From: Candidatus Micrarchaeota archaeon
GTDB taxonomy: Archaea > B1Sed10-29 > WALL01 > WAMD01
Direction: 5' to 3'
Assembly: GCA_964652335.1 (NCBI GenBank)
Contig: CAZZDL010000019.1
Span: forward strand, 1 to 15,061
DNA: 15,061 nt
The notes under the pieces were generated by a model. That model was not told the origin of the DNA. It worked only from the letters and a program-made list of their open reading frames with translations, and ran no database searches. This document shows, piece by piece, positions 1 through 13,354 of this stretch (position 1 is the first letter of the stretch; each line of letters begins with the position of its first letter). Made by a program: the position numbers and the translations under genes.

Positions 1-852
1 AGTAACAAGTTTGTCAGGGAATCAAAATATCCTGAAGATATCTTGGTAGAAGGAGGCTGTGAGCTGAGTAATGGCAAGATATGTGATGCTGACCAAATAG
101 TGGCCTACATAGGTTACATAATAAATGATGTTGAGAATAGTGATACACACTCTGGAGTATATGGACCGGTAGCACTAGGGAAAGAGAATCTGAATACAAA
201 AACAATCAAAGATATACTTGCGGTGCTTGGCAAAGAGATGACAGTGTGTTCGCCAAACGAAGATGCTGGGTGTGGAAAAAGAGGTGAAAGAGAGCTAATC
301 TTAAATACTACTCTATTATCGTGTGGAAATCTGTCATTCATTGCTGCACTAACACCGCAGGGAGACATAGATATCCACGTGAGCAATGAAAGTGCACCTT
401 GGTGTAATAGTCTGTCTACACAAAACGGTCTTGCCTTGCTTGGAATGCTAAACTACGATGGGTGGTCTAGATCTGAATCACTAATAACAACGAACCATTT
501 CGTGCTCAGTGGAGATGACGCAAGCGAACTAATTGAAGGGTTAGATGACCTAGGAGGAACCAAATTAGAAGATACATTTGGTTCATACTCTGGAGTTAGC
601 TCAGACGACTGGTCGGCCTTAACAACCGGGCTGAACCCTGCTTACATAATCCAATATGAGGAAACCGATAACATTTCATCATGGACATTCAAATGCGATA
701 GCACGACTGGGGATTACTTCTACATACTAGACAATGGGAATTCTGTCAGTATATATGTAAACTCCACAGCAATTGGCAGTACACAAGGGACAAATCAAGC
801 TGTGCTAACATTCTTGTACAACTGGCTAACAGGACAGGCCAGCTGCCAATAG
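1..852 (+). CDS. C-terminal part of a large acidic, Ser/Thr/Gly/Cys-rich, probably extracellular or surface protein (5'-truncated by the window)
   Basis: Frame 1 is open from base 1 (SNKFVRESKYPEDILVEGGC...) to TAG at 850-852. Scattered Cys, several N-x-S/T sequons and no TM segment in the visible part. Confidence 0.7.
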   Translation, partial: SNKFVRESKYPEDILVEGGCELSNGKICDADQIVAYIGYIINDVENSDTHSGVYGPVALGKENLNTKTIKDILAVLGKEMTVCSPNEDAGCGKRGERELILNTTLLSCGNLSFIAALTPQGDIDIHVSNESAPWCNSLSTQNGLALLGMLNYDGWSRSESLITTNHFVLSGDDASELIEGLDDLGGTKLEDTFGSYSGVSSDDWSALTTGLNPAYIIQYEETDNISSWTFKCDSTTGDYFYILDNGNSVSIYVNSTAIGSTQGTNQAVLTFLYNWLTGQASCQ

Positions 853-858
853 AATAGC

Positions 859-865
859 TTTTAAA
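859..865 (+). promoter_or_regulatory. Putative archaeal TATA box for the small membrane-protein operon
   Basis: TTTTAAA about 24-30 nt upstream of ATG 889, in a 36-nt intergenic gap. Confidence 0.5.
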
Positions 866-888
866 TGTAGCTAGCATTAATAGGAACG

Positions 889-1320
889 ATGATGAAGGCA
901 GCGTTCCTGGACAGTCTAATCGGAAAGCTTCTTGGGCTTGGACCAATAGCTAGCTTACTGGAAAAGGTAAACCTAGTAATGCTCGGATTAAAGATTGTGG
1001 TCCTGCTTTTTGTCGTTGGATGGGTAAGGACACATGTGGGTGGAGGAAGACTAGGAACATTTGTCCTGCTATTGGTTGGTTATCTGATACTATTCCCATA
1101 CTGGTATTTATTCGGGCCGCTTGCGATATTGTACCTGCTAGCAATAACCGGAGTTACTGGGCTAGCCATGGATATCGTCTTCACTCACCAGGCATATAAT
1201 CCATTTGGCCCTGGAACGCCAACAGTAGGAGAAGAGAGAGCTGCCTATCTTAACAACCCTGCAATGGGACTTCAGTCAAAAATAACCCAAATGTTTAGAA
1301 AAAAGATTGGGGGACGATAA
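889..1320 (+). CDS. Small polytopic membrane protein, paralog family A (W-x9-[LI][GS]-x8-Y)
   Basis: 143 aa with about 3 hydrophobic segments. WVRTHVGGGRLGTFVLLLVGY aligns without gaps to the next two ORFs. Its stop abuts the next ATG. Confidence 0.85.
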   Translation: MMKAAFLDSLIGKLLGLGPIASLLEKVNLVMLGLKIVVLLFVVGWVRTHVGGGRLGTFVLLLVGYLILFPYWYLFGPLAILYLLAITGVTGLAMDIVFTHQAYNPFGPGTPTVGEERAAYLNNPAMGLQSKITQMFRKKIGGR

Positions 1321-1659
1321 ATGAACAAAGGTTTTCTTCCTGCGTCTCCATTGCTTGCTTTGATCTTGCTATTGATAACATTCGCCGTAGTTATAATAGG
1401 GCCAGCAGTAGCTGTACACATATCTCCCACAATAAGGATAATATTCCAATTCGTAATAGCAGTAACGATATACAACTGGGTAAAGAATACTGTGGGCCCA
1501 GGCATTCTGTCTCTCGTTATATCTGCTGTTCTCATATACATATTTGTCATAATGCTTCCTGGCTTCACTGCGTCGTTATGGGCGACTTACTACGTTCTTG
1601 GGCTTGGGATAGCATCAATGCTTATATGGGGATTCACACTGTTCAGTGGGAGAATGTAG
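1321..1659 (+). CDS. Small polytopic membrane protein, family A, with a class III signal-like N-terminus
   Basis: 112 aa, about 4 TM. TAA|ATG junction with GGGGGA upstream. Motif WVKNTVGPGILSLVISAVLIY. N-terminus MNKG/FLPASPLLALILLL. Confidence 0.85.
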   Translation: MNKGFLPASPLLALILLLITFAVVIIGPAVAVHISPTIRIIFQFVIAVTIYNWVKNTVGPGILSLVISAVLIYIFVIMLPGFTASLWATYYVLGLGIASMLIWGFTLFSGRM

Positions 1660-1735
1660 GTCTTATTTCCCAAATCCTTTTATTTAACTAGATTATTATT
1701 TCTAGTAACACAGCTAGCATTACATTGGCCTTTGG

Positions 1736-1743
1736 TTTAAATA
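1736..1743 (+). promoter_or_regulatory. Putative TATA box (internal promoter)
   Basis: TTTAAATA about 32-39 nt upstream of ATG 1775, which is preceded by the SD GGTGGTGA. Confidence 0.5.
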
Positions 1744-1774
1744 GAATGAAATAAAACTAGATAATGGTGGTGAA

Positions 1775-1999
1775 ATGGGGGACTTAATTACTGACCTTCA
1801 GATGGCTCTGATAATAATTGTATTTGTATATGTAATAGCATGGGCCACTGAACTGACAAAGTCTAAGAAAATTGGTGTTATACTAGCGCTAATAATAGTT
1901 TACCTAACAGTTTACCAGCATTTCTCGCTATTACTTATAGTGATCGTTCTATTCTTCGGATATGCATTTTGGGACAAGTTTACCGCTCAACTGGAGTGA
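1775..1999 (+). CDS. Small membrane protein, family A
   Basis: 74 aa, about 3 hydrophobic segments, SD GGTGGTGA. Motif WATELTKSKKIGVILALIIVY. Confidence 0.85.
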   Translation: MGDLITDLQMALIIIVFVYVIAWATELTKSKKIGVILALIIVYLTVYQHFSLLLIVIVLFFGYAFWDKFTAQLE

Positions 2000-2005
2000 T
2001 GCTAA

Positions 2006-2293
2006 ATGGACACAACCACACTAATGATATTCCTGCTGCTCCTGGCACTAGCAATCAGCGCAGATCAAATGTGGATAGCTATTGGAATTGCAATAGTCAT
2101 AGCTATATCTGTTAGGTCCCTCACCTTGGGAATAATAATACTTGCAGGGACGGGGTTGATGCTGTTCCTGAAATCACAGGTTGAATTCTGGTGGGTCATT
2201 TTGGGGTTGATAATGCTATTCGCATTCCTAATGAACAGAAGCGAAGGCGCAGGTCCAGAAATGTACACACCACAGATGCTATTTGGAGGATAA
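2006..2293 (+). CDS. Small membrane protein (about 4 short TM); N-terminal hairpin with a W-I-A motif like family B
   Basis: 95 aa, SD GGAG(TGA) upstream. QMWIAIGIAIVIA resembles WMWLAAIGIALLIA of the next gene. Confidence 0.85.
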   Translation: MDTTTLMIFLLLLALAISADQMWIAIGIAIVIAISVRSLTLGIIILAGTGLMLFLKSQVEFWWVILGLIMLFAFLMNRSEGAGPEMYTPQMLFGG

Positions 2294-2295
2294 AA

Positions 2296-2619
2296 ATGAT
2301 TGAATTACTCATAATAGTCGGGATGGTGATAGTCGGGATATATCTCAGATGGATGTGGCTAGCGGCTATTGGAATAGCACTGCTAATAGCGTATCTGTTC
2401 GCGGCTACAAGCAAGAAGGCTAGGGCTCCAACTGGTGGGAAAAAACCAAAAATAAGGCCTATAATCGTTAAGAGAAGATATGACGTGGAGTCAATATATC
2501 CATCAAAAATGTCAATAAGACTAAATCCACATTACTACACTGGTGCGTGGTGGGAATTCGCTCAAGAGAGGCTTGGTTTGTTCGCAGCTAGCATGATCAA
2601 TTGGTGGAGGAAGCGATAA
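2296..2619 (+). CDS. 2-TM membrane protein with conserved PxKMxxxxNP motif, family B
   Basis: Start re-called at ATG 2296 (SD GGAGG at 2285-2289) rather than 2191. 107 aa: TM hairpin, basic linker, PIIVKRRYDVESIYPSKMSIRLNPHY and an amphipathic C-terminal helix. Confidence 0.85.
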   Translation: MIELLIIVGMVIVGIYLRWMWLAAIGIALLIAYLFAATSKKARAPTGGKKPKIRPIIVKRRYDVESIYPSKMSIRLNPHYYTGAWWEFAQERLGLFAASMINWWRKR

Positions 2620-3029
2620 TGGATAAATGGGTCTCAATATTGATGTTAGGGATATTGGTGCTTTCCTTGTACAAGGGCATGACATGGCTAGCTGGAGCGA
2701 TAGGTATAGTCATTGTATTGGCATTTATTGGAGAAAGACCTAGAAAACCAGTCGCTCCTGCGGGGGGAGCCGCTCAGGCAAAAGAAGAGGAAGAAGTACT
2801 TACTCCAGTAATTGTAACAGATGCAGGAGAGCCGCCCTATCTATATCCCCCTAAAATGATAGTAAAGGTAAATCCAAAATGGGGTTCATTTAATTTCTTT
2901 GAAAATGCTGCCCTTGGTATAGCGGGATTCCTTAATTTAGTGTCAAAAACAGCCACTGGCAAGAGACTGCCTGGATATAAGTATGAAAAAAGATGGGGTG
3001 TTGATAAAATACTATCAAAGAAATCTTGA
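2619..3029 (+). CDS. 2-TM membrane protein, family B
   Basis: Start at ATG 2619 overlapping the upstream TAA (TAATG), SD GGAGG at 2606-2610. 136 aa. Motif PVIVTDAGEPPYLYPPKMIVKVNPKW. Confidence 0.85.
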   Translation: MDKWVSILMLGILVLSLYKGMTWLAGAIGIVIVLAFIGERPRKPVAPAGGAAQAKEEEEVLTPVIVTDAGEPPYLYPPKMIVKVNPKWGSFNFFENAALGIAGFLNLVSKTATGKRLPGYKYEKRWGVDKILSKKS

Positions 3030-3038
3030 GGTGGATGA

Positions 3039-3392
3039 ATGGATTTGGATGACATGGCTATAATGTTCGGGTTGCTTGTCTTGATATGGATGCTTGGATA
3101 CAGATCAATAGCCATTGTTGTATTTGTCCTTTTCATAATAGTGAGCTTCTTCGCAAGGAGACCATCGCCAGAAAGGAGAGTAGTAGAAGGTCTAAAAGTC
3201 CAGGGGGCAGAAGTATTGGAACCAATAGTAATAGAAACTGTGAGAAAGCCTCCATTTAGGATACCAAAAAAGATGGACCTTGGTGTAAATCCAACCTGGA
3301 GCTCAAAGCTCTGGAGGGAAAAGGTAGTTGCGGATGGGTTAGCTAGCATCGGTGGGGCTTTCATAAAACTGTTTGGAGGTAGAAGGAGTTGA
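3039..3392 (+). CDS. 2-TM membrane protein, family B
   Basis: 117 aa, SD GAGGTGG. Motif PIVIETVRKPPFRIPKKMDLGVNPTW. Confidence 0.85.
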   Translation: MDLDDMAIMFGLLVLIWMLGYRSIAIVVFVLFIIVSFFARRPSPERRVVEGLKVQGAEVLEPIVIETVRKPPFRIPKKMDLGVNPTWSSKLWREKVVADGLASIGGAFIKLFGGRRS

Positions 3393-3892
3393 TCTGGCAG
3401 ATATTTGGGCTTGCGTTAATAGCAATATCTGCTGTATTCGCCCAGTGGTGGCTAGCAGCATTGGGTATTGTCATTTTTATTCTCTCCTCAATACCTATCA
3501 AAAGAGTCCCGTCTGGGGCGTCAGTCAGGAAAACAAAGTTAAAACATAAATTGATCCAAGCGCCACAGGAGGCATGGGAAGGTGATGAAATGGCTACATT
3601 TATGGCAATGCAAATGGGGCCTCCAATATTCTCTGACGTAGATATGTTTTACCCTCTAGCAGAATCTGGGAAAGCATTCGGAACAAACCCATTAGCAATG
3701 GGAATAACCAGAAGAATGTTACCCTTTCCAAACTACGGCGAGTCCTCAATATTGCAGAGACTATTTGCTGGATTGATCATACCTATAGATTCTGTTCTGT
3801 TTTCAAAAACATATGGATATAAATTTGGAAATAGAAAGTTAAAAGGTAATGTAAATAATTGGGTCGTTGGCGGAGAGAACAAGATTAGGTGA
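3389..3892 (+). CDS. 2-TM membrane protein with a family-B-like N-terminal hairpin (WWLAALGI) and a divergent cytoplasmic domain
   Basis: TTG start overlapping the upstream TGA (TTGA), AGGAG just upstream. 167 aa. Confidence 0.75.
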   Translation: MIWQIFGLALIAISAVFAQWWLAALGIVIFILSSIPIKRVPSGASVRKTKLKHKLIQAPQEAWEGDEMATFMAMQMGPPIFSDVDMFYPLAESGKAFGTNPLAMGITRRMLPFPNYGESSILQRLFAGLIIPIDSVLFSKTYGYKFGNRKLKGNVNNWVVGGENKIR

Positions 3893-3898
3893 TTATGA

Positions 3899-4516
3899 AT
3901 GAGAAAGTACCTAATATCGGGATTTATTGTAATGATCTTATTCATTCTATTTGCATTTGCAGATAACGGGAATTACATCCCTGAAAAGGGTTGCTGGGTT
4001 TATCCAGACAAACTAATATGTATAAGTCAAAGCCAAGTGAATACTACTGTTTTCATAAAAAATGTGTCCTGTTATTCCACAGATGTGTATGGGACAGGAA
4101 ACCTAATCCAACTCCCGTGCATAGCTAATGGTGAAATGAGACCAACAACTGTAGAAGTATGCTATAAGCTATTACCATATGAAAATGGTAACCCAAAAAT
4201 AGAAGAATATAATCCAAGATACAACTGCAAAAACGAAACATGGGAAGGCAAAGTTCAACTCCACATCCCAAGAGAGATAATTCCGTGGGAGTGCAACGAA
4301 GAAGAAATAGATAATGTTACGACTGCTTGCTTTATAGAACCAAACGCAGACTACGTCATAAATGGCATGGGAAACGATGTAAACGGGACTAAGGTTATCT
4401 ACGTCAACAGTATTGAATCTCCAAAAATAAGGATAGATCTAATTATCGGCGGAATAATCGGGCTAGCTATTGTGATCCTCGTTTATAGAAGGACAAAGAA
4501 AAGTCAAGTTACTTAA
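3899..4516 (+). CDS. Secreted, C-terminally membrane-anchored Cys-rich surface protein
   Basis: Signal peptide MRKYLISGFIVMILFILFAFA, 8 Cys, several N-x-T/S sequons, C-terminal TM LIIGGIIGLAIVILVY followed by RRTKK. SD GGTGA. Confidence 0.8.
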   Translation: MRKYLISGFIVMILFILFAFADNGNYIPEKGCWVYPDKLICISQSQVNTTVFIKNVSCYSTDVYGTGNLIQLPCIANGEMRPTTVEVCYKLLPYENGNPKIEEYNPRYNCKNETWEGKVQLHIPREIIPWECNEEEIDNVTTACFIEPNADYVINGMGNDVNGTKVIYVNSIESPKIRIDLIIGGIIGLAIVILVYRRTKKSQVT

Positions 4517-4979
4517 CGCTCTCCCTAGCTAAAATACTCCTACTAACCTCTAATAGATCCTCCTGCAATTTCTTTATGGCCATCACTACTGGCTTTATCT
4601 CCAATAACAATTGCTTCACTTCTGCTATCTCTGCTTTAAGTTCTGCCAGATCCTCAAGTCTTGCCTCTATCTCTCCGTGTTTCTCATGAAGTAAATCTAC
4701 TTTTGTATGAAGCCTCTCAAAATGATCCTCTGTCTCTCCCAGTTTTTCAACTACTGGCTTAACAGCTTGACCAGTTTCCATAGCTTCCCTAAGAGCAGAT
4801 ACCTCTTTATGCACATCAACAGTATTGGGCATAAGTCCTGCCTCGGATATTATGAGGCTGATATCATCCTTTGCTATTCCCATTTGTTCAAGATTCTCCT
4901 TTATCTGATCAACAGCCAATCCTTGATCATGCATACTCTTGACAAGGCCAGCCAATCGTTTCAGTGTAGCTTCGTCCAT
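4509..4979 (-). CDS. Soluble protein: small N-terminal helical domain plus long coiled coil
   Basis: 156 aa, SD GAGGGAG. Heptad pattern in FERLHTKVDLLHEKHGEIEARLEDLAELKAEIAEVKQLL. Confidence 0.8.
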   Translation of the reverse strand: MDEATLKRLAGLVKSMHDQGLAVDQIKENLEQMGIAKDDISLIISEAGLMPNTVDVHKEVSALREAMETGQAVKPVVEKLGETEDHFERLHTKVDLLHEKHGEIEARLEDLAELKAEIAEVKQLLLEIKPVVMAIKKLQEDLLEVSRSILARESVK

Positions 4980-5076
4980 AACATCTCCCTCAAATCTTTA
5001 TTAACTCCATTACCATTAAAACTTATGTATATCATATATAAATAGTCTTACCGTTTATAGCTTTGGGGGAATAAAT

Positions 5077-6531
5077 ATGTTAGACTTGCCGTATGGACCA
5101 TGGAAGCCAATACTATCTGGGAACTGGAGTGGAATAGACGTCACGTATTATGAAAATCCTGATAAGGAATTACTAATATGCATATTTGATAAAAAAGCAG
5201 AGAAGATTGCCGGATTAGTTATGCTCGTAGCCAAATTCTTCATACCACATGGGAACGCATCTGGACTTGTGGAAAAATTCCCATCTGGAAATTTGGTCCA
5301 CCTAACAAAGAAGACGCCCAATTTATTACTAGATTACATTGGCCTTGTTAGCGATCCTGTTTACGTTCAATTTGAGCCAAGGGAGATAATCATAAAATTT
5401 AACAAAATGTATAACTCTGTTCAAGAGAATGCTAGAGAATTAAGAAAACTAGCAAGGGAGCACCAGATTCCAATAATAGAACTGAAAAATGCTAATGAAG
5501 AGGTAATACACAGATTATTTGGTGAGCCTCTAGCATTACCAACATTAATAGTGAGAAAACCAGGGCAAGGAACCATGCTGGAGATAAAGCTTGGAAAGAT
5601 GAAATTAGGGTTGAAAGTCACTGGGGAGATAGCGGAGGAGCCTGTGCAAGAGCTGGCGTTTACTATAATATCTGGTGAATCTAAGAGACTGACCCATGTC
5701 GTAGTGGAGGAAGCTGTACTTAATGGAGTTACCATGATAGTATTTGACAAAACAGGCGAGTATCTAGCCATGAGAAACCCTAGCCAGAGCACAGAGGGAT
5801 ACGAAAAATTTGAAATATCTCAGCCAATGGGAATGCCAATGAGGAGAATGGAGCCTGGCGTTGACGTGTTCATTGAACCAGGATTCTTTGAGAAAAAATG
5901 TTGGACAGAATTCCTAGGGCTAGACAATGAGACTGCCACGGTAATTGGAGAAATTCTAAAAGAAAAACCAGAAACACTTGACGAAGTTCTAGAAGCAATA
6001 GAAAAAATAAAGCCAAAAAAGTTTATCCATGAAAGGCTAACCATGATGGTAAGCTTAATAAAAGAATTCTATGGAGACCTGTTCAGGGAAAAGAACGATG
6101 GAAGGGAACTAATTGCTCCATGGCTAAAGAAAATAGGTAGGATAACTTGCATAGATTTGTCTGACCTTGATGAAAGAATGGGTGGAGCAATAATGTTTTC
6201 TGTAATAAAAGCCGTCGAGCGGTTCCTAAAATCAGAAAGACCATCTAGAGAAGTTAGATCGGCCACCCTGGTAGAAGTTCCAAAGGATAAAGGCCCTGTT
6301 TTTGAGGAAATATCAAAAACAATGAAAGTTCTATCCGCAAACTATGGACACGGATTTGTGTGCAAGATAGAAAAGGAAGAATGGGTGGAAGATGATATGA
6401 TTCAAGCGGCCATGCTAAGATGTGTTGGTGTTAAGGAAGGAGAGGCCATTATAATCCCACACGGGAAAAAGCCATATAGAATACATGTGAGGCCTACCCT
6501 TTCTTCGTTTGAGAAAGCCTCTCGTCAATAG
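5077..6531 (+). CDS. HerA/FtsK/VirB4-superfamily-like protein with degenerate ATPase motifs (probable pseudo-ATPase)
   Basis: VVVEEAVLNGVTMIVFDKTGEY, ITCIDLSDL, GEAII and PYRIHVRP match the HerA/DUF87 pattern in the correct order. The Walker A, Walker B and Arg-finger positions are substituted. Confidence 0.7.
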   Translation: MLDLPYGPWKPILSGNWSGIDVTYYENPDKELLICIFDKKAEKIAGLVMLVAKFFIPHGNASGLVEKFPSGNLVHLTKKTPNLLLDYIGLVSDPVYVQFEPREIIIKFNKMYNSVQENARELRKLAREHQIPIIELKNANEEVIHRLFGEPLALPTLIVRKPGQGTMLEIKLGKMKLGLKVTGEIAEEPVQELAFTIISGESKRLTHVVVEEAVLNGVTMIVFDKTGEYLAMRNPSQSTEGYEKFEISQPMGMPMRRMEPGVDVFIEPGFFEKKCWTEFLGLDNETATVIGEILKEKPETLDEVLEAIEKIKPKKFIHERLTMMVSLIKEFYGDLFREKNDGRELIAPWLKKIGRITCIDLSDLDERMGGAIMFSVIKAVERFLKSERPSREVRSATLVEVPKDKGPVFEEISKTMKVLSANYGHGFVCKIEKEEWVEDDMIQAAMLRCVGVKEGEAIIIPHGKKPYRIHVRPTLSSFEKASRQ

Positions 6532-6937
6532 CCTCTTTTAGCTGGTTTATTGTAACTAGTTCCATTGGATTGATAGAGTCTACAACGTACTTTACCTCAT
6601 CTAGATCTGACCTAAGGTCTGCAATCTGATCCTCTATCCTATCTAACCTGGCTTTTATTTCAGATAGGTCAACCGAGCCTGTCTTGGGTAGCTTCTTTGA
6701 TATCTCTTCTATTATTTCCTCTTTGCTGAACGCTGGCCCTCCGCCCATCTCCTCCAGTTCCTTCAGCTTTTTATTATGGGAAACTACTGTCCTAGCCATT
6801 ATCTGGAGATTATTTTCTAAAACCTTAATTCTCTGGGCAAGAAGCCTAAGCTTTGAGTCTAGTATGTTTATTGTTCTAGCCACAGATACTGGCTTAGCTT
6901 GAGTCTGTCTAACTGGTCTAGTATGTCTGTCAACCAT
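6494..6937 (-). CDS. Coiled-coil protein with C-terminal P-x-E-L-V-T motif
   Basis: 147 aa, SD AGGTGG. Two heptad stretches (LDSKLRLLAQRIKVLENNL and LSEIKARLDRIEDQIADLRSDLDEV). Overlaps the convergent gene by 38 nt. Confidence 0.8.
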   Translation of the reverse strand: MVDRHTRPVRQTQAKPVSVARTINILDSKLRLLAQRIKVLENNLQIMARTVVSHNKKLKELEEMGGGPAFSKEEIIEEISKKLPKTGSVDLSEIKARLDRIEDQIADLRSDLDEVKYVVDSINPMELVTINQLKEAIDERLSQTKKG

Positions 6938-9610: not shown

Positions 9611-10603
9611 TTATTTCATAAGCTTCACTTTTAGTTTTGAACTGAATGCCAAAGCTAGGAACTCAAGTTCACCTCTTAATGGGTGGTTCGATGGTATTTT
9701 ATTAAGTGCCTCTTTAATGGTTTTGACGGCCTCTTCATATTTATTCATCTCTGAAAAGGCAATGGCCTTATTGACCCAAGCTTGTGCTAGATGTGGATTT
9801 ATTTTTAATGCTTTGTCGTAATGTCTAATAGCCTCTTCGTACTTGCCTGTCTCAGAAAGAGTATTTGCTTTGTTATTCCATGCCTCTGCTAGGTTTGGAT
9901 TTATTTTTAATGCTTTGTCGTAATGTTTTAGGGCTTCTTCGTATCTACCCATCTCAGAAAGTGTGTTAGCCTTGTTATTCCACGCATCTGCAAGATTTGG
10001 ATTTATCTTTAATGCAATATCATGAGCAGTCAATGCCTTTTCTAATTTTCCAATTTCCCTTAAAAAATTTCCATGATTTGTCCATATATATGCTGCAAGC
10101 TCTTCCCTTGTTTGCGGCTTTCCCTTATGATGAGTATACGACTTATCAAACGCAGGATCGTGCTGTTTTCCATCAATAACAACATATGCATGACCATCTA
10201 TTCCCTCAACGACATGATACTTAACATCAAATCCCATCTCTCTTGCCATTTCACCCAATGCAGCTGACATTGCTAGGCAGTCAGCATAGTGTTTACAAAG
10301 AAATCCAGATAATGTTTTCCTTGGTGAAAGCTGTATGCCATATGAGCCGAAAATTAGTTCAATTGCAGTTGAACCGTATTCATGCACAAATTCCCTCATG
10401 TGTTCTATCAGCTCTTTGTCAGAGATCTTTTTGTTTTTCCTCATCCATTTCCCAAGCTCTCCCTCTTTTATATCCTTTGGCAATTCTGGAAACCATCCCT
10501 TCTTTCTGCCATAGTCGTAGAATTTCCTGAGAAACTTTCTTGTTGTACTCGGGGGCATTGCTGCGTCAATAAGCTCCTTCTTTGACTTTTTTCTAAACGG
10601 CAT
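9611..10603 (-). CDS. Transglutaminase-like (Cys-His-Asp) domain fused to TPR repeats
   Basis: ADCLAMSAALGEMAREMGF...GHAYVVIDGKQHDPAF, then about 4 TPRs (ALKINPNLADAWNNKANTLSEMGRYEEALKHYDK). Start re-called at ATG 10603 to avoid overlap with the divergent gene. Confidence 0.85.
   Translation of the reverse strand: MPFRKKSKKELIDAAMPPSTTRKFLRKFYDYGRKKGWFPELPKDIKEGELGKWMRKNKKISDKELIEHMREFVHEYGSTAIELIFGSYGIQLSPRKTLSGFLCKHYADCLAMSAALGEMAREMGFDVKYHVVEGIDGHAYVVIDGKQHDPAFDKSYTHHKGKPQTREELAAYIWTNHGNFLREIGKLEKALTAHDIALKINPNLADAWNNKANTLSEMGRYEEALKHYDKALKINPNLAEAWNNKANTLSETGKYEEAIRHYDKALKINPHLAQAWVNKAIAFSEMNKYEEAVKTIKEALNKIPSNHPLRGELEFLALAFSSKLKVKLMK
9794..10015 (-). repeat. 102-bp periodic repeat encoding TPR units
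   Basis: The identical 31-mer TGGATTTATTTTTAATGCTTTGTCGTAATGT occurs at 9794 and 9896, with a third partial copy at 9998. Confidence 0.9.
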
Positions 10604-10672
10604 AGTAATATTACTGCAAAAGTCATTAATAATTGGGAAATACTTTTTAATTACCAATAGTAAAACTTTTGC

Positions 10673-11545
10673 ATGCATAAGAACATAGCATTCTTAGGAG
10701 AGACATCTGGGCTGGACCTAGGAAAGAAAGCTGGTGAAACAGACATTAGCTATTTTTCTAGGATAGACTCTAGAGATATAATTAGTATATTCTCACCAAA
10801 GACATACCCTGAAAAGATACAAAGCTTGCTAGTGGCTGTTGGTTTAGCAGACCTAGTAGTGCTACGCGTGACAGAACTAGACTGGAAACTTGGTGAGGAG
10901 ATAGTAGTAAGTAATCTACTGGAAAAGCCAGGGATCATTTTAGCAGAGGAATGGGTATATGAACAAGTGAAACCTCTTCTAACTAGAACTAACCTAGAGA
11001 ATTGGAAGTATGCTAAGGATGAAAAAGAGGTGTGGGAGTTCATTAGAAAATGGAAGCCTCAGGCCAGAGATGGAAAAGAAATCTGGATAGACCAAGCATT
11101 CAAGGTAAAAAGCGTAGGGACTGTTGTCTTAGGAGTGGTGAAGGCTGGAGACGTGACAGTGCATGAGAAGCTTGTAGCTTGGCCGTCTGGGAAAGAAGCA
11201 GAGATCAAAAGTATACAAATGCAAGACAAGCCGTACGAAAAAGCAGGAACAAATGCTAGAGTGGGGTTAGCGTTAAAGGGAATAGAACCAGAGGATCTTC
11301 CAAGGGGAACTATAATCGGGAATGCAGAGGTTGTAACTGAGATACCAAGTTGGGAGAAATTGAATTTGTACAAGGGAGACGAAAAGAACATAACACATAT
11401 ATTCAATGGAATAAGTTTTGTTGGAACTAGCAATAACAAGTTAGTGAGAGAAATAGCTGTTGGTTTCTCCAAAAGGTTTTTACTGGTAGAAAACACAAAT
11501 AGGAAAGGATTAAGAATTGCTGGATTCGGTGACTTCAATGTCTGA
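10673..11545 (+). CDS. Archaeal SelB-like translation factor homolog (aSelBL) with degenerate GTPase domain
   Basis: LGKKAGETDI...YPEKIQSL N-terminal pattern. EF-Tu domain II IDQAFKVKSVGTVVLG...EIKSIQM...ARVGLALKG. No GxxxxGK[ST] P-loop. Confidence 0.8.
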   Translation: MHKNIAFLGETSGLDLGKKAGETDISYFSRIDSRDIISIFSPKTYPEKIQSLLVAVGLADLVVLRVTELDWKLGEEIVVSNLLEKPGIILAEEWVYEQVKPLLTRTNLENWKYAKDEKEVWEFIRKWKPQARDGKEIWIDQAFKVKSVGTVVLGVVKAGDVTVHEKLVAWPSGKEAEIKSIQMQDKPYEKAGTNARVGLALKGIEPEDLPRGTIIGNAEVVTEIPSWEKLNLYKGDEKNITHIFNGISFVGTSNNKLVREIAVGFSKRFLLVENTNRKGLRIAGFGDFNV

Positions 11546-12422: not shown

Positions 12423-12460
12423 TGGGAAGATTTAAAAAGAATGTCTGATTTTCTTTGTGT

Positions 12461-13354
12461 ATGAAGCGACCAAGTGTTATTGGGATAATAGGTTTAGTAC
12501 TAGCGTTAATAGGGTTGTACTTGTTCCTTGATCTGAACCTTGACGTGTTCTCATATATGGCAATGCCTGATCCTATGCGTATGATTCAAATATTGCCAAT
12601 AGTTGGTGGCGTTCTCCTTGGAATAGGCATGGCTGTTGTGATAAAGGAAAAGAACCCAATTCTTACAGTAGCTAGCTTCATTTTATTCTCAGCTCTGGCC
12701 TTCAAGAATATTGCAGCTATTGGGTTTGGTATTGGAATGCTTGTGCCCGGATTAATTGGTATTGGAAAGCATTTGCCAACGTATCTGGCTGCGTTGATGG
12801 TGTTTTTGTCTGCATTCATAACTGTAAGTGCCGACCCATCCATGTATCAAGACTTGCTAGTCTCATCCCTAGCAGATCAAGTAACGTCCAGCTTGTCCGG
12901 TATGCAAGATGCAATCGCGTCTGCAGTTGAGAACCAAGTAAATTCAATGCTTCCGTCTAGGGACGAAATAGCCTCTATGGTCGAGTCCGCAATGCCATGT
13001 AATGACACGGCGACTCAAGAGATGTGCGTTAGTGCTAGGGAGCAGATTATAGACCAAGTTTATAATGAGATAAAGTCGCAAAATTATTCTCAAATAATAA
13101 AGGAGAAGATAGGTGAAGGCCTAAGCATTGACAAGGAAACTGCCAAAAAAACTATCAAGGAGATAGAGTTTGTAAAGCCTTTGCTTGACAATATTCAATG
13201 GATAATTGCATTCCTAGAGACTGGGATTTTCTTGTTTGTGGCTAGCATTGTTGTGAATATCCCTCAAGGAGTAACAGGATTCTTGCTTGATATAATTTGG
13301 AAGATCAAGCCAAGGAAGGAAGAGGGATCCGAGGAAGAGGCTGTAGAAGAATGA
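12461..13354 (+). CDS. Multi-pass membrane protein with a large helical extracytoplasmic loop (C-x8-C) and an acidic tail
   Basis: About 5 N-terminal TM segments, a soluble region of about 120 aa and a C-terminal TM. TTTAAAAA at 12431-12438 supports a leaderless start at ATG 12461. Confidence 0.8.
   Translation: MKRPSVIGIIGLVLALIGLYLFLDLNLDVFSYMAMPDPMRMIQILPIVGGVLLGIGMAVVIKEKNPILTVASFILFSALAFKNIAAIGFGIGMLVPGLIGIGKHLPTYLAALMVFLSAFITVSADPSMYQDLLVSSLADQVTSSLSGMQDAIASAVENQVNSMLPSRDEIASMVESAMPCNDTATQEMCVSAREQIIDQVYNEIKSQNYSQIIKEKIGEGLSIDKETAKKTIKEIEFVKPLLDNIQWIIAFLETGIFLFVASIVVNIPQGVTGFLLDIIWKIKPRKEEGSEEEAVEE

What the first reader, a model, noticed from the sequence alone, without database searches (positions are those of the whole stretch)
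889..6937. Candidate undescribed membrane apparatus: 8 small paralogous membrane proteins, a surface protein, a dead HerA/VirB4-like ATPase and two coiled coils
Seen: eight consecutive hydrophobic ORFs of 74-167 aa, mostly coupled (TAA|ATG, TAATG, TTGA, SDs embedded in the upstream gene end), falling into two motif-defined paralog groups. They are followed by an anchored Cys-rich surface protein and a HerA-like gene bracketed by coiled-coil genes. None carries hydrogenase, Mrp, ATP-synthase or Sec/Tat motifs that I recognise. Known: the archaeal Ced/Ted DNA-transfer systems and conjugative T4SS combine small 2-TM pilin-like proteins with a HerA/VirB4 ATPase. Inference: this is a heteromeric channel, pilus or membrane-remodelling complex, possibly used for host contact if the organism is a DPANN symbiont.
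Basis: partly seen in the sequence, partly recalled or inferred. Interest (0 to 1): 0.85.

Follow-up and report, generated by a model that had tools for sequence, protein, structure and literature searches.

The report
DPANN giant-adhesin membrane platform genes
Tiny, probably symbiotic archaea keep a set of genes for giant surface proteins, small unnamed membrane proteins, a motor-like protein that lacks its ATP-binding motifs and two coiled coils; the set is kept or lost together and may build a cell-surface contact apparatus not found in the papers searched.

Summary
The block is real and is core genome, not an island. The HerA-fold protein occurs in 25 of 27 genomes of this small DPANN phylum and 119 of 121 of a second phylum (Iainarchaeota, inferred). 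Gene order and orientation are conserved. In 161 Micrarchaeota, m2, cc12 and the giant-protein anchor mark the same 21 genomes, and the dead HerA 20 of those, even where the genes are scattered. Walker A was found at the P-loop in none of 170 homologs, and no CedA/VirB6-size channel is present, so it is not a Ced/T4SS member. Distant cc10+cc12 pairs flank type IV pilus-type ATPase loci in 3 of 4 other small archaea. Best reading (0.45): a membrane platform with an inactive ring scaffold that displays giant adhesins. Physical association is inferred, not shown. The scan noted this block before on another genome (e1-2516744).

The parts
1..852 (+). 3' end of a giant surface-protein gene; continues on contigs C41 and C25 through 55-nt overlaps (about 1,600 aa if the overlaps are real), with a second giant gene upstream on C25
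   Evidence: CarboxypepD_reg/prealbumin-like repeats in the C41 part
889..1320 (+). m1, 3-TM-core membrane protein, paralog group A; own TATA-like element upstream
1321..1659 (+). m2, group A membrane protein with an extra N-terminal hydrophobic helix, coupled to m1
1660..1774 (+). AT-rich gap with TATA-like element (TTTAAATA near 1736); start of a second transcription unit and a recurrent insertion or breakage point in relatives
1775..1999 (+). m3, minimal 3-TM group A protein
2006..2293 (+). m4, four short hydrophobic segments, separate family, conserved in all three lineages
2296..3392 (+). m5, m6, m7: 2-TM hairpin proteins with basic linker, conserved proline-rich motif and C-terminal amphipathic helix (group B)
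3389..3892 (+). m8, divergent group B protein, variable across the phylum
3899..4516 (+). s9, Cys-containing C-terminally anchored surface protein, accessory (8 of 19 own-phylum loci)
4509..4979 (-). cc10, small N-terminal helical domain plus probable coiled coil; stays with the membrane genes when the block breaks
5077..6531 (+). FtsK/HerA/VirB4-fold protein without Walker A and B, with an alpha/beta N-terminal domain
6494..6937 (-). cc12, coiled-coil protein with conserved C-terminal YxxDxINP motif

Best explanation
One vertically inherited cell-envelope apparatus that displays giant adhesins. SHOWN: the parts, their conserved order and orientation, joint presence and absence, loss of the ATPase motifs, and the Ig-like repeats with an N-terminal anchor in the giants. 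INFERRED: (1) m1-m4 form a hetero-oligomeric membrane platform; (2) the group B 2-TM proteins add cytoplasmic tails whose amphipathic helices lie on or bend the membrane; (3) the giants, whose conserved N-terminal segment precedes their anchor helix, are gathered on this platform and point outwards; (4) the dead HerA/VirB4-fold protein is a ring-shaped cytoplasmic scaffold rather than a motor, tied to the membrane by cc10 and cc12; (5) the purpose is surface or host-cell contact.
For: Core-genome behaviour: 25 of 27 and 119 of 121 genomes in two phyla, nearly always one copy. Whole set m1-4, 2-TM, cc10, HerA, cc12 within one fetched locus in 17 of 19, 15 of 21 and 4 of 20 loci; orientation fixed in 19 of 19, 19 of 19 and 11 of 11 loci that hold the core. 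In 161 Micrarchaeota, m2, cc12 and the giant N-terminus (4-8 copies each, best E at most 1.5e-17) mark the same 21 genomes and the full-length dead HerA 20 of them; the HerA, cc12 and giant profiles had no Micrarchaeota seeds. In five genomes where the block is broken up, m4 and cc12 are kept in 5 of 5 and cc10 was found in 3 of 5, each time next to m4. Distant cc12-cc10 pairs (HHalign 96.9% and 97.6%) in 4 other small archaea; in 3 of 4 they sit between small paralogous membrane genes and a divergent T2SSE-family ATPase with pilin-like ORFs, the same layout as here. Amphipathic tails beat shuffles in 14 of 21, 15 of 21, 19 of 21, 14 of 15 and 17 of 17 group B proteins.
Against: The 21 Micrarchaeota probably form one clade, so the joint pattern may be a single loss event, and very divergent homologs in the other 140 could be missed. 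The block has about five transcription units, two on the opposite strand. PolB and methionine aminopeptidase are also syntenic (18 and 16 of 19; 17 and 13 of 21), so synteny alone does not prove shared function. Giants are not adjacent in some lineages. The membrane paralogs beside cc10/cc12 in the other archaea are not detectably homologous to m1-m3 (HHalign under 1%, at shuffle level). A cultured host-attached Micrarchaeum strain and four relatives gave only partial generic HerA hits, so the module is not needed for host attachment in all Micrarchaeota.
Confidence: 0.45

Rival explanations
1. A domesticated T4SS/Ced-like conduit for uptake of host DNA or metabolites: m1-m3 build a tube or pore, the dead VirB4-like ring is the base, and energy comes in trans from another ATPase.
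For: VirB4 is among the best folds for the C-terminal part (4ag5 Z 20.3, rmsd 3.3, 276 aligned). The N-terminal domain aligns to the N-terminal region of TrwK/VirB4 over 121 residues, the longest alignment in the list (Z 6.0, rmsd 3.3). G000 has an intact HerA-family ATPase elsewhere (C7). Ced consists of small 2-TM proteins, a 6-7-TM channel and a VirB4/HerA ATPase (PMC9905601, passages).
Against: No Walker A at the P-loop in 170 homologs; no CedA/VirB6-size protein in the block; m1-m3 have a 3-TM core rather than a 2-helix pilin pattern; Z 6.0 is within the noise range stated by the tool, below several chaperone-fold hits; HerA scores above VirB4.
Confidence: 0.2
2. A housekeeping membrane-remodelling, division or chromosome-anchoring system, kept beside PolB.
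For: Single-copy core distribution; PolB adjacency in two phyla; amphipathic helices and coiled coils; FtsK-HerA fold.
Against: Not found in 140 of 161 Micrarchaeota; PolB link mostly lost in the Micrarchaeota that have it (3 of 20 loci); joint presence with giant extracellular proteins; cc pair beside pilus-type loci elsewhere.
Confidence: 0.15
3. Two or more functionally separate modules (giants plus membrane proteins; dead HerA plus coiled coils) that are neighbours only through conservative gene order, as the earlier scan note read it.
For: Separate promoters and strands; dead HerA lies away from the membrane genes in 9 of 20 Micrarchaeota loci; cc12 often elsewhere; housekeeping neighbours are syntenic too.
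Against: All parts tested are still co-retained after physical separation and missing together elsewhere; cc10 follows the membrane genes rather than HerA, which does not fit that split.
Confidence: 0.17
4. Divergent subunits of a known ion-translocating complex (Eha/Ehb/Mrp-Mnh) or of Tat.
For: Weak MNHE hit on m3 (E 0.014, 15.6 bits against a cut-off of 27); group B tails recall TatA amphipathic helices (recalled).
Against: No family at curated cut-off for any membrane ORF; no shared family among 36 m1 orthologs; no hydrogenase, antiporter or TatC gene among the window's annotated ORFs.
Confidence: 0.03

Closest known systems
HerA (FtsK-HerA superfamily; PDB 4d2i, 9x1m, 7f6d)
   Same: C-terminal 310 residues have the HerA fold (Z 22.6, rmsd 4.1, 277 aligned; Foldseek E 2.9e-13); Pfam DUF87 above cut-off.
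   Different: Walker A/B lost; alpha/beta N-terminal domain; no NurA neighbour; a separate DUF87 protein lies near NurA in G051, G061 and G271.
Ced/Ted DNA import and VirB/D4 T4SS (PMC9905601)
   Same: Small paralogous membrane proteins plus a VirB4/HerA-fold protein in a chromosomal, vertically kept locus.
   Different: Inactive ATPase motifs, no 6-7-TM channel, 3-TM cores, giant adhesins and coiled coils instead; no sequence match of m1-m3 profiles to solved pilins.
DPANN type IV pilus-like loci (T2SSE/FlaI ATPase, TadC, divergent pilins; PMC6393860 passages)
   Same: Homologous cc10+cc12 pair and the same layout with small membrane paralogs in 3 of 4 other small archaea.
   Different: Here the pair brackets a dead HerA-fold gene; membrane paralogs are not detectably homologous; G000's own T2SSE ATPases lie on other contigs.
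DPANN attachment structures seen by cryo-ET (PMC11329633 passages; PMC11420986 and PMC11104419 listing/abstract)
   Same: Large envelope complexes at host contacts of DPANN cells, genes not assigned in the passages seen.
   Different: Seen in other lineages; the module was not found in the five Micrarchaeales-type genomes tested, so it is not shown to encode those structures.

Membership tests
Ced/Ted/T4SS | VirB4/CedB ATPase with intact Walker A and B | tested here: not met
   P-loop degenerate in all rows; 170 homologs scanned, 6 pattern hits all outside the P-loop, one DEGH
Ced/Ted/T4SS | 6-7-TM VirB6/CedA channel in the locus | tested here: not met
   Membrane ORFs of the block are 74-167 aa with 2-4 hydrophobic segments
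Ced/Ted/T4SS | VirB2/CedA1-like two-helix pilin | tested here: inconclusive
   No PDB sequence match for m1, m2, m3 profiles at E 10 apart from one unrelated chance hit; no own model of m1-m3 was searched; Atlas model of m2 was low confidence
Ced/Ted/T4SS | VirB4-type N-terminal domain | tested here: inconclusive
   TrwK 7o42 Z 6.0, rmsd 3.3, 121 aligned; best Z 7.8 to secretion-chaperone/YbjN folds; all under 8
HerA of HerA-NurA | FtsK-HerA ATPase fold | tested here: met
HerA of HerA-NurA | Catalytic Walker motifs | tested here: not met
HerA of HerA-NurA | N-terminal HAS barrel | tested here: inconclusive
   High-confidence model is mixed alpha/beta; fold search does not settle it
HerA of HerA-NurA | NurA partner gene nearby | tested here: not met
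   NurA not found in G000 or G005; far from this locus in G051, G061, G271
Eha/Ehb/Mrp-Mnh | Subunit family match at curated cut-off and partner subunits in the operon | tested here: not met
Type IV pilus system | T2SSE ATPase and platform protein in the locus | tested here: not met
   None in the window; orthologs on C2, C47 and C18 of G000
Any of these | Physical assembly, filament or pore formation, expression | not testable with these tools
   Needs culture, proteomics or cryo-ET

The most novel reading that the evidence does not exclude
This is a lineage-defining host-contact organelle of Iainarchaeota-side DPANN archaea: an ancestral surface-appendage locus (cc10, cc12, membrane paralogs) in which the pilus motor was replaced by an inactive HerA/VirB4 ring that organises a platform bearing several 150-300 kDa adhesins, a kind of attachment machine with no motor of its own.
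Probability: 0.3. Interest if true: 0.88.

Novelty: categorically new. Interest (0 to 1): 0.7.

Why it matters
How DPANN archaea recognise and hold their hosts is open; cryo-ET has shown contact structures without assigning genes in the passages read (PMC11329633). Genomes of 0.6-1.5 Mb that keep about ten unnamed genes plus several 5-8 kb surface-protein genes in nearly every member of two phyla point to an important function. The block gives concrete targets (antibodies, proteomics, structure prediction) and a marker that splits Micrarchaeota into carriers and non-carriers. A HerA/VirB4 fold kept across phyla without catalytic motifs is unusual in itself. The novelty class is provisional: it rests on failed or inconclusive membership tests and on inferred, not shown, assembly.

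Tried and rejected
Complex prediction for m1+m2+m3 never ran, so there is no result either way. No RNA holder was listed for 889-6937. Atlas search with m6 gave only scores of 0.75 and TM at most 0.40; with m2 only unnamed Iainarchaeota clusters. Foldseek on the N-terminal domain gave nothing at E 0.001, and no HAS-barrel chain appeared among 50 VIA rows. I suspected that the small membrane paralogs beside cc10/cc12 in other archaea were homologs of m1-m3; HHalign on 10 sequences did not support it. Long ORFs upstream of m1 in G308 and G314 looked like giants but read as DNA polymerase II large subunits on inspection (assignment recalled). The tree (13 dead and 21 active rows) shows the dead proteins as one clade (100/100) split by phylum, but did not resolve the sister group and left out the NurA-linked HerA proteins, which my motif filter missed. 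No full-length ortholog was found in 29 other archaeal genomes with the narrower profile A1. Paper searches returned no description of this block; supplements were not read, and the tables of PMC6393860 could list these clusters.
Full report
Setting. The window is all of contig C19 of an 821-kb genome, 96.8% complete. Its phylum holds about 30 genomes in one class. Named homologs are labelled Diapherotrites, Iainarchaeum, Micrarchaeota or simply archaeon, so it is a DPANN lineage close to Iainarchaeota and Micrarchaeota. The GTDB name B1Sed10-29 is my guess from memory and comes from no call. That the phylum of handle G051 is Iainarchaeota is inferred from those labels.

Observation. All twelve ORFs are real. 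Only the HerA-like protein reaches a curated cut-off (DUF87; nothing in NCBIfam). m1-m3 form one paralog group with a 3-TM core, m5-m8 a second with a 2-TM hairpin, a basic linker and an amphipathic tail; m4 is a third type. TATA-like motifs indicate about five transcription units, and both coiled-coil genes are antisense to the rest. s9 is confined to 8 of 19 own-phylum loci.

Window 1-852 is the end of a giant protein. Contigs C25, C41 and C19 share 55-nt overlaps, with an alternative path through C45 and C46, and C25 carries a second giant gene. Relatives have one or two genes of up to about 2,700 aa directly upstream of m1. They start with a conserved segment and a membrane helix, then carry carboxypeptidase-regulatory/prealbumin-like repeats; 5 of 8 giant pieces scanned had such or other Ig-like hits and 3 had none, and both G000 pieces scanned had them. 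A CD[AS]TQ-type motif near the C-terminal part is shared with the window ORF.

Distribution. The HerA-like protein was found in 25 of 27 own-phylum genomes (11 of 11 high quality) and 119 of 121 genomes of G051's phylum (53 of 53). It had only 4 weak partial hits in 29 other archaea. A full-library search gave 193 clusters at E up to 1e-30. I fetched 19, 21 and 20 loci from the three lineages, chosen for contig length and family spread. The full set was in one locus in 17, 15 and 4 of them, and orientation never varied where the core was together. G051's phylum mostly has a single 2-TM gene where the window has four. Five genomes found through an ARMAN probe, including the named cultured strain A_DKE, gave only partial hits. 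In 161 genomes of that phylum, 28 matched at 1e-8, 20 of them over most of the length. m2 matched 21 (11 of its 23 seeds came from these genomes), cc12 the same 21 and the giant N-terminus the same 21 plus two marginal partial hits. These 21 are probably one clade, so this is not 21 independent observations.

One system or two. An earlier scan note on another genome (e1-2516744) judged the block real, not a DNA-transfer machine, and made of two linked modules. I agree with the first two points. On the third my data lean the other way. In G203, G301, G308, G314 and G324 the block is in pieces, yet m1-m2, m4 (5 of 5), cc12 (5 of 5) and the dead HerA are all kept, and cc10 (found in 3 of 5) sits beside m4. 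In G205, G328 and G330 cc10 also stays with the membrane genes. In four Iainarchaeota-side genomes (G065, G121, G161, G163) cc12 is present, in the three whose loci I fetched away from HerA; it is missing in the five incomplete genomes tested that also lacked a HerA hit. Against this, PolB and methionine aminopeptidase are syntenic too, so order alone proves little.

The ATPase-like protein. The model (pLDDT 84.7) matches HerA best and VirB4 closely behind. The P-loop reads TIISGES-KRLTH, and neither Walker motif is kept in any aligned ortholog. The orthologs form one clade that splits by phylum, as expected for vertical descent. The N-terminal 160 residues fold confidently (pLDDT 95.2) as an alpha/beta domain with only middling matches: secretion-chaperone/YbjN folds (Z up to 7.8) and the VirB4 N-terminal region (Z 6.0). 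A NurA-linked DUF87 protein exists separately in three carriers; G000 has no NurA hit but has an intact 791-aa HerA-family protein on C7.

A wider link. Weak cc12 hits in 4 of 29 other archaea (E 1e-7 to 8e-6) proved to be adjacent cc12-cc10 pairs (HHalign 96.9% and 97.6% on four sequences each; part of such scores can come from coiled-coil composition, but the cc12 match covers the conserved C-terminal motif). In G058, G045 and G050 the pair lies between two to four small paralogous membrane genes and a divergent ATPase of about 757 aa (T2SSE family in the two scanned), a 700-aa membrane protein and short ORFs that look like pilins on inspection. This is the window's layout with a different central gene. 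Those membrane paralogs did not align to m1-m3. PMC6393860 (passages) describes divergent type IV pilus loci in DPANN; the passages seen do not mention this block.

Mechanism. The best-supported reading is a membrane platform with an inactive ring scaffold that gathers giant adhesins (0.45). Shown are composition, conservation, joint retention and loss of catalysis motifs. Assembly, topology and the host-contact role are inferred. Rivals are a T4SS/Ced-derived conduit powered in trans (0.2), separate modules (0.17), a division or remodelling system (0.15) and a known ion-pump or Tat complex (0.03).

Literature seen. PMC9905601, PMC11329633, PMC4158269, PMC6393860 and PMC5468238: passages from term searches. 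PMC11420986: one passage and the listing. PMC11104419: listing only. Six searches found no description of the block; supplements were not read.

Verdict. A real, deeply conserved gene system, not found in the papers searched, that fails membership in Ced/T4SS, HerA-NurA and Eha/Mnh. Interest 0.7.

Noticed in passing
G000 contigs C25, C41, C45, C46, C19 (window 1-871): Assembly bubble in the giant gene: two versions 87-93% identical rejoin at window 817-871, suggesting allelic variation or a collapsed tandem duplicate of the adhesin.
   Followed up: partly
L234:6397-8772 (G000:C7): Intact HerA-family ATPase with C-terminal winged-helix hits; possible in-trans partner, not tested.
   Followed up: partly
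L234:15508-16152 (G000:C7): cc10 paralog with C-terminal hydrophobic helices.
   Followed up: no
G000:C2:34000-38497, C47, C18: T2SSE-type ATPases and large membrane platform proteins about 27-39% identical to those beside cc10/cc12 in other archaea.
   Followed up: no
window 12455-13354: Unnamed membrane protein after methionine aminopeptidase, syntenic in many own-phylum and G051-phylum loci; link to the module untested.
   Followed up: no
window 10673-11545: SelB/EF-Tu-like protein that appears to lack a complete GTPase domain; only the domain 2 region matched.
   Followed up: no
window 9611-10678 (minus): TPR protein inserted between PolB and the EF-like gene, not seen in the relatives' loci.
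   Followed up: no
L160-L168, L190-L192: Micrarchaeota lacking the module carry several intact HerA/VirB4-like ATPases of 455-860 aa in their own clades; candidates for an alternative contact system.
   Followed up: no
L063, L068, L195 (PolB and neighbouring ORFs): PolB ORFs of about 1,180 aa and one split ORF, against about 780 aa normally, suggest inteins; not checked.
   Followed up: no
L204, L206, L207, L209-L212: Micrarchaeota versions add extra membrane genes (families H6, H11, H32) and often a DUF424 gene upstream.
   Followed up: partly
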